Made by a program: the position numbers and the translations under genes | From: Eledone cirrhosa | Taxonomy: Eukaryota | DNA: 64,000 nucleotides | Assembly (NCBI GenBank): GCA_964016885.1 | Contig: OZ024742.1 | Span: 223,076,001-223,140,000, forward strand | Direction: 5' to 3' | Shown here: positions 16,790-40,025 of the stretch, piece by piece | Layout of the letters: the number at the start of each line of letters is the position of its first letter | Numbering within the stretch: the stretch's first letter is position 1 | The notes under the pieces: model-generated | Database searches by the model: none | What the model saw: only the letters and a program-made list of their open reading frames with translations | What the model was told of the DNA's origin: nothing

Positions 16790-16794
<5 letters not shown>

Positions 16795-17910
16795 AGAGTT
16801 TAGTGTAAAAGTTGGTGTTCATCAGGGCTCTGTTCTTAGCCCCCTACTATTTATTATTGCCCTTCAGGCTATAACAGTGGAGTTCAAGACCGGCTGCCCA
16901 TGGGAACTCCTATACGCAGATGATCTAACGCTCATAGCTGAATCAATGGCCGAGCTAGAGAAGAAATTCCAAACATGGAAGCACGGCCTAGAATCAAAAG
17001 GCCTTAAAATTAACCTGGCTAAGACTAAAGTTCTAGTTTGTAGGAAAGAAAATAAGGCGGTGGTCCCTTCCGGGAAATGGCCATGCTCAGTGTGTAGGAA
17101 AGGCGTAGGTAGAAACTCCATTTTATGTCCCAAATGCAAAGTATGGGTGCATAAAAGATGTAGTGGGATCACAGGTAAGCTAACTAAGAACATAGATTTT
17201 ACATGTGGCCGGTGCTCTGGTGCAATAAGTAGCAGCAAGTGCCCACAAAATACTAGCTCTTTCAATTGCGCAGAGGGTTCTATAGAAATAGTGGACAGCT
17301 TCCGTTACCTGGGTGACAAAATCAGCAGTGGGGGAGGATGCTCTGAAAGTACAGTAGCTAGAGTCAGAACTGGATGGAAAAAGTTCAGAGAGCTTATACC
17401 ACTATTAGCCGCTAAAGGGTTCTCCCTAAAAATGAAAGGCAGGTTGTATGATGCCTGCATACGAACAGCAATGTTGCATGGCAGTGAGACCTGGGCATTG
17501 TGTGCAGAGGATATACGCAGACTAGAGAGGAACGAAGCTTGCATGCTCCGCTGGATGTGTAATAGTAATATACGTGAACGGCAAAGCATAAACGAACTAA
17601 GGAAAAAATTAGAAATAAGAGGGATCAGATGTTGTTTACTCGAGAGAAGGCTACGTTGGTATGGTCACGTGATGCGCATGAAAGACGATAGCTGTATAAC
17701 AAAGTGCAGGGCAATAAAGATAGACGGTAGCTACGGAGTAGGCAGACCCAGAAAAACCTGGGACGAGCTGATAAATTCCGACCTCACACACTTACACCTC
17801 TCCAAGACAATGTCACTGGCCCGAGACCTTTGGCGGTACTCAGTAATAGAGAAGACCCGCCTTGCCTAAATACAAAGTAAAACATACCACAGTCAGTAGG
17901 CATCTCTAAC
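16790..17910 (+). mobile_element. 5'-truncated young RTE LINE (RT C-terminal half, open frame to 17869)
   Basis: GVHQGSVLSPLLF, LLYADD, KTKVL, FRYLG, RRLRWYGHVMRM, GRPRKTW. Starts abruptly after (TA)n. Confidence 0.95.
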
Positions 17911-18104
17911 AAAATACTATAATATCTCTCTTAGGAATAGACATACACACATTCACACAGGAATAGACTGTTACAAACAGCGGAAAGAGTTAGGCATCCT
18001 CTAAAGCAATATTCATAGCTGGAACACACATACACAAGCATCATATATATATATATATATATATATAATAGAGAGAGAGAGAGAGAGAGAGAGAGAAGAA
18101 ATTA

Positions 18105-18391
18105 AAAGATGGTTAAAAAAGTTCCATATATTTTATTATGCGCATTTCGAAAACAACATCATCCTGGGACAAAAATTGTGTTCTCATCAGATAAAATAAG
18201 GTAACATGATATGAGGCCTAAAAACACTTGTGAACAAGAAAGTGTCCAGTCTACATTTTTGTTCACAAGTGTTTTTAGGCCTCATATCATGTTACCTTAT
18301 TTTATCTGATGAGAACACAATTTTTGTCCCAGGATGATGTTGTTTTCGAAATGCGCATAATAAAATATATGGAACTTTTTTAACCATCTTT
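18105..18391. repeat. Perfect 133-bp inverted repeat with a 21-nt spacer
   Basis: 18105-18237 is the exact reverse complement of 18259-18391 (checked by eye). Confidence 0.95.
18298..18367 (+). ncRNA. Type I hammerhead ribozyme motif (mirror copy on - strand at 18129-18198)
   Basis: UAUUUUAU-CUGAUGA-GAAC...GUUUUC-GAA-AUGCGCAU-A-AUAAAAUA. Stem I is 8 bp, the core is intact, stem III is the palindrome AUGCGCAU, and the site is AUA. Confidence 0.8.
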
Positions 18392-18564
18392 ATATATACT
18401 CCAGTTATACCAACTGTTGAGTGCTACTTATCTGATATATATGCATAGTTTTATTGTTCTACAATATTACTCATCTCCTACATATATATATATATATAAT
18501 GGTAGAACACTGGAAGGTAATATCCGTAGTGGTAGAGCACTCAGTCCATGGGACGAGTTAGGTA

Positions 18565-18669
18565 GAAGTGGTTATACAACAGTTAGTTCACCAAACCGAG
18601 AACAATTGTTTCGCCTAAGGTGAAACAATTGTTCTCGGTATGGTGAACTAACTGTTGTGTAACCACTTC
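18565..18669. repeat. About 52-bp-arm fold-back centred next to a hammerhead 3' half
   Basis: GAAGTGGTTATACAACAG...AACAATTGTTTCGCCT / AGGTGAAACAATTGTT...AACCACTTC. Confidence 0.9.
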
Positions 18670-18753
18670 CAATAAATATATATATATATATAACGAAGTC
18701 CAGAAATAGCCGTCGAAACGGCTTGAGCTCTGCCGTCGGAGGTCATACATTTT

Positions 18754-18819
<66 letters not shown>

Positions 18820-30289: not shown

Positions 30290-31538
30290 TGTTATACTTG
30301 GGGAGGTCATATTTGTGTAATATTGCCAGAATTAATAACAGAACACACTCACTGTTTGGTTGGTTTTCGCTTCTCGCTGTCTTTTATATCGGTAATCTAA
30401 CTTACTCGGTCCTCAATGTTGCCATTGACTGACCGACGGTCAAAAAATAATACAGATACAATATAGACACAAACACATATATATAGTTTATCATAAATCT
30501 TTCGTTGCACATCTGCAACATCGTCAGTGGTCAGTGTATGTCTACGCCATTTTTATTCAGTCTGTCTATATATTTATTTATTTATTTGCTTACTTGTTTA
30601 TTTTATTTTGTTTTCTTTGCGCATGCGTTTGCGTGTGTGTATAGTGTTATGTGTGACTAGTGCTTGTTGTTATTGTGCTTGTGTATGTATTTATTTATTT
30701 ATTTATTTATCTTATTTTATTTACTTATTTATACTTCTCTTAGGTCAGTGTTGTTTGTTTGGGTGTTGTTGTTATTCCATTCATTCTTTCTGTTTAGCTT
30801 TGGTCTTCTAATTTCTATTTCACTGGCCTCTCTGATTTGCCTATCTGCTGGGTCATTTCTATGTTTAGATATTATTCTAATTTCTATGTTGTCTATGTTA
30901 CCGTCATGTTATTGTCTAGCATATTTGTATAGTACTGACCCGTTTTTTCGTCCTTTTAGTTCCCCCCAGTGTTGGTCTATCCTTTCACCTATGCTACGAG
31001 CTGTCTCACCTATGTATGTTGTTGTCATGTTTCTGCAAGTACCCTCTGTACATCTTATGCTATAGACTACGTTTCTAGTTTTACAGTTTATCCGGGGGTT
31101 CACCTTACATATGATACATTTCCTATTGGTACAGTGGGTTTTCTTAAAAGGGTAGGTTTTGCTGATCAGGGATTTTATGGTGGTTCCTGGCTTTTCTACC
31201 ACCTTTATTTTTAAGTGGGTCTTTCTCAGGGCCTTTCTACACTGGTTAGCTAATTTCCCTCCAGGGGTGGCGTCCACAAACATGACACTCTGGTATCTCT
31301 GGTTGTCGTACCATGAGGTGGCTTTCCCTATCTTATGTCTAGCCCTATCTAAGCTATTCCATGATTTGCTCCTGTATAATGGGCAAATTCTTTTCATGTC
31401 CAGTTCTATGAGGGTCTTATACTTTTCCATGGCTCCTTCGTATACTCTGACTCTGTCTCTTTGGTTGTAGCCAGAGAACTGCATGCGGTTGATGAAGTGT
31501 TGGATGTGTTTTTCCATTTCTGTTGGGTCGCACATGCT
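30290..31538 (-). mobile_element. Penelope-like element 3' part (linker, Cys motif, GIY-YIG, pLTR), Neptune/Naiad type
   Basis: SGY...PLYR...FVDATPGG...VVEKPG...CTNRKCIIC...C..NVVYSIRC...YIGETARSIGERIDQH. One premature TAA at 30909-30911; the frame then continues (RQIREASEI...LNRKNEW) to a stop near 30729. Confidence 0.9.
30488..30533 (-). ncRNA. Degenerate type I hammerhead in the pLTR of the Penelope-like element
   Basis: UGACCA-CUGACGA-U-GUUGCA-gaug-UGCAAC-GAAAGAUUUA-UGAUAA. Core and 6-bp stem II are intact; stems I and III carry mismatches. Confidence 0.65.
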
Positions 31539-31539
31539 A

Positions 31540-31785
31540 GACACATTCTTCACACAGTCCACGCTGTAATGTGGCCATGTAGGTAACACGGTAAAAAGTT
31601 CCCAGTTCAACACTGTAAATGTGGTTGGTGTTAGGAAGGGCATCCAGCCGTAGAAAGCCTGCCAGATAGTCCTATACGAGCAAGACACGGTCACCCGACC
31701 AACCTTGCCTCAAGTGGCACAACTCGCGTCTAACACATGCTAGCGTGGAAGATGGACGTTAAACGATGATGATGATGATGATGAT
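31540..31785 (+). mobile_element. RTE 3' UTR/tail fragment
   Basis: GTGGTTGGTGTTAGGAAGGGCATCCAGCCGTAGAAA...GGACGTTAAAC(GAT)n; the same sequence follows the RTE ORF at 38170-38480. Confidence 0.85.
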
Positions 31786-37874: not shown

Positions 37875-39580
37875 TCATCATCATCATCGTTTAATGTCTA
37901 TCTTCCACGCTAGCATGGGTTTAGAGGGGAATTGTCCCACATGAGGCAAGATTGGTTGTCTTGTTCGTATAGGACTGTCTGGCAGGTTTTCTATGGCTGG
38001 ATGCCCTTCCTAACACCAACCACGTTTACAGTGTGGACTGGGAGGTTTTACCGTGTTACCTACACAGCCACATTACAGCATGAACTGTGTTTTTTTTTTG
38101 TCGTGACACCTACACGACCTCATTTATTTAGGACTGGATGTTGTGGTACCAACATAACTTTATATATCATCATCATCATCATCGTTTAACGGCCATTTTC
38201 GACGCTAGCATGGGTTAGACGGGAGTTGTGCCACTTGAGGCAAGGTTGGTTGGGTGACTGTGTCTCGCTCATATAGGACTATCTGGCAGGCTTTCTATGG
38301 CTGGATGCCCTTCCTAACACCAACCACATTTACAGTGTGGAACTGGAAACTTTTTACTGTGTTACCTACATGGCTACATTACAGCGTGGACTGTGAGTTT
38401 TTTTTTTTTTTTTGGTCGTGCCACCTACACGATCTTGATCTCATTTATTTGGACTGGATGTTGTGGTACCAACTTTACAGAGAGAGGGTGGTGTTGGTGG
38501 GAGTGGGAGGATAGGGTAGGGGTAGTGGATTGGGGTGTATATTTGGTTAGTAGGTGCCTACTGACTGTAGGTTTCGCTTTGTACATAGGCAAGGCGGGTC
38601 TTCTGTATTACTGTGTAGCAGCAAAGATCTCAGTCCAATGACATTGTCTTAGAGAAGTGCAAGTGTGTAAGGTCGGAATTTATCAGATCGTCCCAGGTTT
38701 TTTTGGGTCTACCTACTCCGTAACTACCATCAATTTTGATCGCCCTGTACTTTTTTATGCAGCTGTCGTCTTTCATGCACATCGCGTGACCATACCAACG
38801 TAGTCTTCTCTCAAGTAAACAGCATCTGATCCCTCTTATTCCTAATTTCTCACTTAGTTCATTTATGCTTTGCCGTTCACGTATGTTACTATTACACATC
38901 CAACGGAGCATGCATGCTTCGTTCCTTTCCCGTCTGCACAGGTCCTCTGCACATAATGCCCATGTCTCACTGCCATGTAGCATTGCTGTTTGTATACAGG
39001 CATCATACAATCTGCCTTTCATTTTTAGAGAGAAACCTTTTGTGGCCAACAGCGGTATAAGCTCTCTGAACTTTTTCCATCCTGTTCTGACTCTGGCTAC
39101 TGTACTTTCAGAACACCCTCCGCCACTGCTGATTTCGTCACCCAGGTAACGGAAAGTGTCTACTATTTCTATAGAACCATCTGGGCAATAGAAGGAGCTA
39201 GTATCCTGTGGACACTTGCTACTTATTGCACCTGAGCATTGGCTACATATAAAGTCTACGTTCTTAGATAGTTTACCTGTGATCCCACTACATCTTTTAT
39301 GTACCCATACTTTGCATTTGGGACATAAAATGGAATTTCTGCCTACTCCTTTCCTACACACTGAGCATGGCCATTTCCCTGAGGGCACCTGTGCCCTATA
39401 TTCCTTTCTACAAACTAGAACTTTAGTCTTAGACAAGTTAACTTTAAGGCCTTTTGATTCTAGGCCATGTTTCCATGTTTGGAATTTCTTCTCTAGTTCA
39501 GCCATTGATTCAGCTATGAGCCTTAGATCATCTGCGTATAGGAGTTCCCATGAGCGGCCGGTCTTGAACTCCTCTGTTAT
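37875..39580 (-). mobile_element. 5'-truncated RTE LINE with duplicated 3' tail (same family as 16790-17910)
   Basis: LLYADD...FRYLG...RRLRWYGH; premature TGA at 38630. Tails at about 38165-38480 and 37875-38160, each ending in (GAT)n. The 5' break is at (TA)n. Confidence 0.95.
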
Positions 39581-40025
39581 ATATATATACATATAGCATG
39601 TTGGTCTCTGTATCTGACTTATCTCATAACCTAACAACCCTTCTAACCCATGCATGCGCAGAAAAATGGATGTTAAATGACAACAATGATGATGATGATG
39701 ATGATATATATATATATATAAAATTGTTATCCTGACCTCCCAGACCCTGGCAGTATGAGAAAAGCAGGATGTGGAGCTGGTTATAATGTCAGAAAATTTA
39801 AAGTCCCAAATACCCCCCCCCCCCCCCCCCCCCCCCCCCCCGCCCCTCTGACACACACTTACATTTTATATATATATATATGCTCACTTATCTTTACAGT
39901 GACTAACAACATCCCGCTGGGAAAAATTATATAGTATTATTTTGAAATTTTAATTTTTTGCTGGTTCCTAGTATTATGTTCTGATGTGAAACATCTATAA
40001 TTGAATATTCTATATTAATATTTAA

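What the first reader, a model, noticed from the sequence alone, without database searches (positions are those of the whole stretch)
18105..18391. Perfect 133-bp hairpin holding an intact hammerhead on each strand
Seen: identical arms, so the event is very recent or homogenised. Each strand encodes a full hammerhead with 8-bp stem I and palindromic AUGCGCAU stem III. Known: palindromic stem III lets minimal Penelope hammerheads cleave as dimers. Inference: in either transcription direction the antisense arm is made first and should trap the ribozyme in a 133-bp duplex. That would protect a host pre-mRNA from self-cleavage while creating an ADAR or Dicer substrate.
Basis: partly seen in the sequence, partly recalled or inferred. 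Interest (0 to 1): 0.7.

Follow-up and report, generated by a model that had tools for sequence, protein, structure and literature searches.

The report
Head-to-head stump of Penelope retrotransposon
This hairpin is a short head-to-head insertion of a common Penelope-like jumping gene that carries a hammerhead self-cutting RNA motif in its end repeat, a known layout, and its sister copies suggest that such hairpins likely form when the two strands of one DNA cut copy the same RNA from two fixed starting points.

Summary
In detail: 133 of 133 bp arms, 21-nt spacer, and a type I hammerhead motif on each strand. It is not a unique event. The arm is the terminal repeat (pLTR) of a dispersed Hydra-clade Penelope-like retrotransposon family: 867 exact hits of a 22-mer, with RT plus GIY-YIG ORFs upstream in longer copies. 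The insert is larger than reported (18094-18481) and asymmetric: only one arm has the 3' tail. Inverted pLTRs, one-ended tails and opposite-strand hammerhead pairs are published. Sister hairpins show no sign of homogenisation. No host gene or RNA data were found, so pre-mRNA protection is unsupported. The family record is informative: 74 of 75 classifiable inverted pairs have one tailed and one untailed end; 31 of 157 arm 5' ends fall in one 6-nt spot; none starts exactly at the ribozyme cut. This likely means twin priming on one uncut RNA. The scan noted similar hairpins before, also in this genome.

The parts
18094..18256 (-). Untailed (short-ended) pLTR copy of the Hydra-clade PLE family. 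Its 5' end is at +3 from the family's CATATG spot; its last bases are replaced by a (GA)n tract.
   Evidence: 163 of 163 identical to sister locus L012; family structure
18238..18258 (.). The 21-nt 'spacer': extra 5' reach of the left arm plus a junction of 2-3 T bases or a short microhomology (ambiguous)
18259..18391 (+). Tailed (long-ended) pLTR copy. A 13-nt deletion between two TCTTT repeats follows 18391.
   Evidence: alignment to L012; loose ends in other copies at 18391
18392..18481 (+). PLE 'tail' (88 nt in the family) between the short and long end sites, present on this arm only
18298..18367 (+). Type I hammerhead motif: C3 at 18306, predicted cut after A18359, palindromic stem III
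   Evidence: core and stem III palindrome kept in diverged relatives
18129..18198 (-). Mirror hammerhead motif: C3 at 18190, predicted cut after 18137
   Evidence: mirror of the + copy
18043..18093 (.). (TA)n then (GA)n tract, left target flank
   Evidence: sequence
18482..18498 (.). (TA)n tract, right target flank
   Evidence: sequence; 169 of 189 family ends are followed by a TA or CA microsatellite
18500..18669 (.). Second small inverted insertion of a different hammerhead-bearing PLE family (arms 49 of 52 paired at 18565-18669, tail on one arm only) in the same TA tract

Best explanation
The hairpin is a dead, protein-less, head-to-head insertion of two 5'-truncated terminal repeats of a high-copy Hydra-clade Penelope-like retrotransposon in a (TA)n tract, likely made when both strands of one target cut primed reverse transcription on the same element RNA at two fixed internal sites. 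Shown: family membership, asymmetry (one arm ends at the short site, the other 88 nt further at the long site), TA target, shared source of the two arms. Inferred steps: (1) The element RNA likely starts at an initiator-like TCATAT about 68 nt before the hammerhead core. (2) The endonuclease likely nicks both strands of (TA)n. (3) One 3' end would prime at the short site (+167) and the other at the long site (+255); both sites are followed by AT-rich bases in the RNA. (4) The cDNAs would run towards the RNA 5' end, the second displacing the first where they overlap, and stop at or before it. (5) The two cDNA ends would be joined with a few bases of microhomology or filler. The template was not cut by the hammerhead, because both arms run through the cut site. 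The hammerhead is conserved for the active element's own cycle. In this copy it is a passenger, predicted to be silent in a read-through RNA.
For: Family: 52 matches from 40 scored of 1762 candidates; 867 exact 22-mer hits, reversed control 0. RT and GIY-YIG ORFs lie upstream of the same arm, and L051 and L062 are direct pLTR-ORF-pLTR copies. Hydra motifs DKT, YRDD, CxCX5C, CxxC-E and CxH are present, CX2-5CxxC is absent. One-tail rule: among 88 loci from the first 100 hits in position order, 44 pairs are long/short, 1 short/short, 0 long/long after four hand corrections; 5 pairs were unclassifiable and 38 had no partner seen. A second sample of 56 loci gave 30, 0 and 0, with 3 unclassifiable and 23 unpaired (read by eye). 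Together 74 of 75, P=2e-21 against independent choice. Arms of one insert share variants at 1.41 per 100 nt against 0.26 (max 0.62) in 1000 cross-locus shuffles. In 31 of 44 compact pairs the untailed arm reaches further 5'; in 12 of these the partner is tail only, so neither arm can be a full copy of the other. 31 of 157 arm 5' ends lie at -1..+4 of CATATG against about 4 expected per 6 nt. Both-strand cleavage and extension and two RT start sites bounding the tail were shown in vitro for a Poseidon PLE (PMC11167929, parts 1-2).
Against: No RNA data for this organism were available, so the transcription start is inferred from DNA ends only. ATATG is also microhomologous to the TA target, which explains part of the pile-up. 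61 of the 144 sampled loci had no partner seen within the stretch fetched, so twin priming is not the only outcome. Two short/short pairs exist (L163, L053), and three pairs have an arm running past the long site into the ORF (L087, L153, L159). In vitro, PAc showed no difference in start site between strands (PMC11167929), which does not by itself predict one site per strand. Classes come from BLAST ends with hand corrections. The RWK motif of Hydra reads RWI here. No tree against published Hydra proteins was built.
Confidence: 0.78

Rival explanations
1. Same element, but the inverted copy arises by self-priming or fold-back, on the first cDNA or on an antisense transcript (Arkhipova et al. 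2013).
For: Proposed from palindromes at inverted junctions in Adineta (PMC3846280, passages). CATATG at the hot spot is itself a palindrome, and some junctions carry short local fold-back fillers.
Against: In 31 of 44 compact pairs each arm holds sequence the other lacks, and 12 partners are tail only. A simple cDNA fold-back cannot make these. The antisense-template version is not excluded, but it does not explain one tail per insert.
Confidence: 0.12
2. Two separate RNA molecules, or the two pLTRs of one tandem transcript, are copied from the two strands, and the tail is set afterwards by endonuclease resolution (Craig et al. 2021).
For: [quoted passage not shown] Long inserts with both arms reaching far into the 3' UTR exist. 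Overlapping arms need no strand displacement in this model.
Against: It needs an extra rule to give 74 of 75 mixed ends. It does not predict tail-only partners that abut the short site, although that enrichment is weak.
Confidence: 0.25
3. One reading: a selected or homogenised host element in which the antisense arm locks the ribozyme to protect a pre-mRNA and feeds ADAR or Dicer.
For: Folding energies favour the hairpin by over 200 kcal/mol. The arms have 0 differences, while the unpaired tail has 2 substitutions and a 2-nt insertion relative to most copies.
Against: It is one of many such hairpins. Sister hairpins decay (3.6 differences per 100 nt). No host exon was recognised. It sits among LINE and PLE debris. 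A lone sense hammerhead of this type is expected to cut poorly anyway (PMC4209133, PMC11167929).
Confidence: 0.04
4. Assembly or library fold-back artefact.
For: No laid contig spans the hairpin.
Against: The arms have different ends and flanks and a private 13-nt deletion. Dozens of sister hairpins have their own junctions and obey an element-specific rule.
Confidence: 0.02

Closest known systems
Hydra clade of C-terminal-EN Penelope-like elements (Craig et al. 2021, PMC8557442; e.g. Penelope-13_HM, Hydra-1_Obim)
   Same: DKT, CxCX5C linker, CxxC and CxH around E and N, no CCHH, canonical type I hammerhead, (TA)n target. Penelope-13_HM is listed with a 5'-truncated inverted copy and the hammerhead on both strands (supplement).
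   Different: The hammerhead sequence differs from every Hydra row seen in supplement part 2, with a longer stem II. RWK reads RWI. The unit is about 3.7 kb (L062 without two inserted repeats) against generally under 3 kb. The tail is 88 nt against the usual 30-40.
Dual opposite-strand minimal hammerheads of PLEs (Cervera and de la Pena 2014, PMC4209133)
   Same: Pairs of hammerheads 100-700 bp apart on opposite strands, palindromic stem III, dimer-type activity
   Different: Here the pair is traced to one insertion with defined, unequal ends
Poseidon element PAc of the green anole (Frangieh et al. 2024, PMC11167929)
   Same: Two internal end sites bounding a tail, AT-rich target, hammerhead-uncut RNA as template
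   Different: Here both sites lie 5' of the likely start codon (+332), not inside the ORF. Both are followed by AT-rich bases that could pair with the target, whereas PAc start sites are not homologous to it.
L1 twin priming (recalled, no paper read)
   Same: Both target strands prime on one RNA and the cDNAs are joined with microhomology
   Different: In L1 the second site varies and the segments hardly overlap. Here both sites are fixed and the arms often overlap, giving a hairpin.

Membership tests
EN+ Penelope-like element | Single ORF with RT and C-terminal GIY-YIG endonuclease between pLTRs | tested here: met
   L051 (715-aa open frame) and L062 are pLTR-ORF-pLTR. YRDD and Y.G.T motifs are present. 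Pfam gave only a weak GIY-YIG hit, E 0.058, in 1 of 4 proteins. The window copy itself has no ORF.
EN+ Penelope-like element | 5'-truncated inverted copy with a tail at one end | tested here: met
EN+ Penelope-like element | Type I hammerhead in the pLTR | tested here: met
   Motif in the window and in diverged relatives. Cleavage itself not testable here.
Hydra clade | DKT in place of DKG | tested here: met
   L051 position 36, L052 position 93
Hydra clade | CxCX5C linker, CxxC and CxH flanking E and N, no CCHH or CX2-5CxxC | tested here: met
   CNCPVRTKC and CLH found, CX2-5CxxC not found. CNLCLAEK and absence of CCHH read by eye.
Hydra clade | N-terminal RWK motif | tested here: inconclusive
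   RWI at the matching place in L052, L161, L062, L051
Hydra clade | Insertion into (TA)n | tested here: met
   169 of 189 ends
Hydra clade | RT phylogeny groups with published Hydra families | not tested
   Published protein sequences were not obtained
Neptune or Nematis clade | CX2-5CxxC linker and CCHH motif | tested here: not met
Non-LTR retrozyme | Head-to-tail tandem units, each with a hammerhead | tested here: not met
   The window copy is one head-to-head pair. Definition from bioRxiv 10.64898/2026.07.22.740005, part 1.
Active hammerhead ribozyme | Self-cleavage at the predicted site | not testable with these tools
   Indirect test negative: none of 157 arm 5' ends starts exactly at the cut; one locus (L198) starts 1 nt after it

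The most novel reading that the evidence does not exclude
PLE inverted repeats are made by obligatorily asymmetric twin priming. One RNP uses two fixed start sites on one hammerhead-uncut RNA, one site per target strand, and runs off at the RNA's 5' end. Genomic hairpins would then map the promoter start and both RT start sites of any PLE family without experiments, and the open question of how PLE inverted pLTRs and one-ended tails form becomes testable in the existing in vitro system. My literature searches found the parts but not this combined rule; the scan's own unreviewed notes state similar models.
Probability: 0.55. Interest if true: 0.55.

Novelty: new member of a known kind. Interest (0 to 1): 0.3.

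Why it matters
The locus itself is ordinary transposon debris. The family counts matter a little more. A near-absolute one-tail rule, a sharp 5' pile-up, and no ends at the ribozyme cut are constraints on the unresolved PLE integration mechanism, here for a clade (Hydra) without mechanistic data. Many such hairpins would also be dsRNA sources if they are transcribed, which is untested.

Tried and rejected
Rfam at gathering threshold: no hit. I first labelled the family Neptune; the motif check against PMC8557442 section 11 rejected this in favour of Hydra. Homogenisation of arms: not supported (that count includes two pairs later found to be wrongly paired, L126 and L140). Ends at the ribozyme cut, a lead from e1-8622537: tested with a pattern downstream of the cut, no pile-up. 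A second pile at +60..+62 is partly later insertions of another repeat, so it was not interpreted. Enrichment of tail-only partners ending exactly at the short site was weak and is not claimed. The contigs laid pool all family copies and say nothing about editing or about this locus. Whether the site lies in an intron remains open. The protein Atlas gave no result. A look-up of earlier findings by sequence and by nearby place returned nothing.

Full report
Observation. The arms 18105-18237 and 18259-18391 pair at 133 of 133 positions around a 21-nt spacer. Each strand carries a type I hammerhead motif with C3 at 18306 (+) or 18190 (-), an 8-bp all-A-U stem I, the stem III palindrome AUGCGCAU and a predicted cut after A18359. 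The 18-mer core occurs twice in the window against 0.12 expected. Rfam has no hit at gathering threshold.

What it is. A search of the window's own 3.0-Gb genome with one arm gave 52 matches from 40 scored of 1762 candidates, many as opposite-strand pairs. An exact 22-mer occurs 867 times and a 25-mer further downstream 923 times, reversed controls 0. Longer copies carry a GIY-YIG-type C-terminus about 0.7-1.4 kb upstream of the arm. Of 32 loci taken by that protein, nearly all have the arm behind it in the same orientation. L051 and L062 are pLTR-ORF-pLTR copies. The proteins show DKT, YRDD, CxCX5C, CNLCLAE and CLH, and lack CX2-5CxxC. These match the Hydra clade as defined in PMC8557442 section 11, except that RWK reads RWI. 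Pfam gave only a weak GIY-YIG hit. 169 of 189 family ends are followed by a TA or CA microsatellite.

Anatomy of this copy. Against sister locus L012, the left arm runs 18256 to 18094 on the minus strand at 163 of 163 identity and ends at the family's short site, in a (GA)n/(TA)n tract. The right arm starts at about 18257-18259, lacks 13 nt between two TCTTT repeats, and continues through a tail to 18481, then (TA)n. So the spacer is element sequence, and the perfect 133 bp end at a deletion. The insert is asymmetric, which also argues against an assembly fold-back. No laid contig spans it.

Family record, ends. Positions are counted from the C of a CATATG 69 nt before the hammerhead core; the short site is +167, the long site +255, the likely start codon +332. 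I took the first 100 of the 867 hits in position order, 88 loci. The script gave 43 long/short pairs, 3 short/short, 6 other pairs and 36 unpaired. By hand I moved L101 to long/short and set L126, L140 and L156 as unpaired, because their neighbour belongs to another insertion. That leaves 44 long/short, 1 short/short, 0 long/long, 5 unclassifiable and 38 unpaired. A second sample of 56 loci came from the first 100 hits of the downstream pattern that were not in the first sample; a few were not fetched or run, and the stretches were only 1.2-3 kb. It gave 30, 0 and 0, with 3 unclassifiable and 23 unpaired (read by eye). Together 74 of 75. Two ranked sets agree: 15 long/short among 24 arm-ranked loci (one by hand), and 14 long/short plus 1 short/short among 28 protein-ranked loci.

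Family record, arms. The two arms of one insert share non-majority bases at 1.41 per 100 nt, against 0.26 (max 0.62) in 1000 cross-locus shuffles, so they come from one source. Compact hairpins differ at 3.58 per 100 nt (30 pairs) and share 0.70; long inserts differ at 6.20 and share 2.05 (28 pairs). Hairpins are therefore not more homogenised. One of 19 compact pairs of the position-ordered sample is perfect. In 44 compact long/short pairs the untailed arm reaches further 5' in 31 (12 with a tail-only partner), the tailed arm in 8, with 5 ties; 22 junctions have an offset of -5 to +2 nt. With sub-lineage references, 31 of 157 arm 5' ends lie at -1..+4, against about 4 expected per 6 nt, and ends are rarer upstream. 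The window's left arm starts at +3. None of the 157 starts exactly at the hammerhead cut (+123); one tandemly repeated locus starts 1 nt after it.

Mechanism. Published work shows a PLE protein cutting and extending both target strands, starting internally at two sites that bound the tail, and using hammerhead-uncut RNA (PMC11167929, parts 1-2 of 4). It also shows an internal promoter in the Penelope pLTR (PMC2377424, passages). With the counts above, the most likely model is twin priming on one RNA, one fixed site per strand, run-off at or before an RNA start at TCATAT, and end-joining. These steps are inferred; the RNA start rests on DNA ends only, and microhomology with TA explains part of the pile-up. 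Simple fold-back (PMC3846280, passages and abstract) cannot make arms that each hold unique sequence. A two-template model with later resolution stays possible.

The hammerhead. Core and stem III palindrome are kept in relatives at 65-82% identity, with changed stems II and III, which fits selection in active elements. The monomer fold scores -4.7 kcal/mol with ensemble probability 4e-5; the stem III duplex alone scores -10.5; the full hairpin -227. Lone metazoan PLE hammerheads did not cut in vitro (PMC4209133, parts 1-2 of 4), and the anole one needed protein. I recognised no host exon among the listed frames and found no usable RNA run. The protective role and ADAR or Dicer action are therefore unsupported rather than disproved.

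What is known. Inverted 5'-truncated copies with a tail at one end (PMC8557442, passages; PMC3846280), opposite-strand hammerhead pairs 100-700 bp apart (PMC4209133) and a Hydra family with the hammerhead on both strands (supplement part 2 of 59) are in print. Other parts of that supplement were only keyword-searched and may list closer relatives. I also saw part 1 of 5 of bioRxiv 10.64898/2026.07.22.740005 and passages of PMC12910113, which added nothing on mechanism. Searches did not show the combined one-site-per-strand model; the L1 twin-priming comparison is recalled. The scan holds 231 similar unreviewed notes, some from this genome. My twin-priming and RNA-start reading was noted, before that look-up.

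Verdict. Real, a new family member of a known kind, ordinary as a locus. Interest 0.3, carried by the family counts.

Noticed in passing
window 18500-18669: A second inverted insertion from another PLE family with its own hammerhead (stem III ACAATTGT) and a Hydra-like ORF upstream in sister loci; about 65-nt tail on one arm only.
   Followed up: partly
window 18691-18756: A piece of a third very common repeat that also forms inverted pairs with a one-sided extension in TA tracts (L076, L161). Probably another PLE end; no ORF traced.
   Followed up: partly
window about 16790-17869 (+) and 38630-39865 (-): 5'-truncated LINE fragments with RT C-terminal frames (RTE-like by recall); the first ends just before the TA tract that holds the hairpin.
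   Followed up: no
window 30909-31709 (-): A 266-aa frame with a CxxC linker and YIGET motif, a GIY-YIG endonuclease of a different PLE clade by eye.
   Followed up: no
L198 (G000:C1 about 80.772 Mb): A tiny family hairpin repeated four times in tandem, whose arm starts 1 nt after the predicted ribozyme cut.
   Followed up: no
L087, L153, L159, L012: Inverted partners that start inside the ORF, beyond the long end site; possibly a third start region or another mechanism.
   Followed up: partly
L051, L052 ORFs: An asparagine-rich, low-complexity stretch between RT and endonuclease, reminiscent of the N-rich inserts reported in Adineta Penelopes (PMC3846280).
   Followed up: no
L062, L099, L137, L149: A roughly 200-nt repeat inserts recurrently into AT-rich spots of this PLE, in several loci right at hammerhead stem I.
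   Followed up: no
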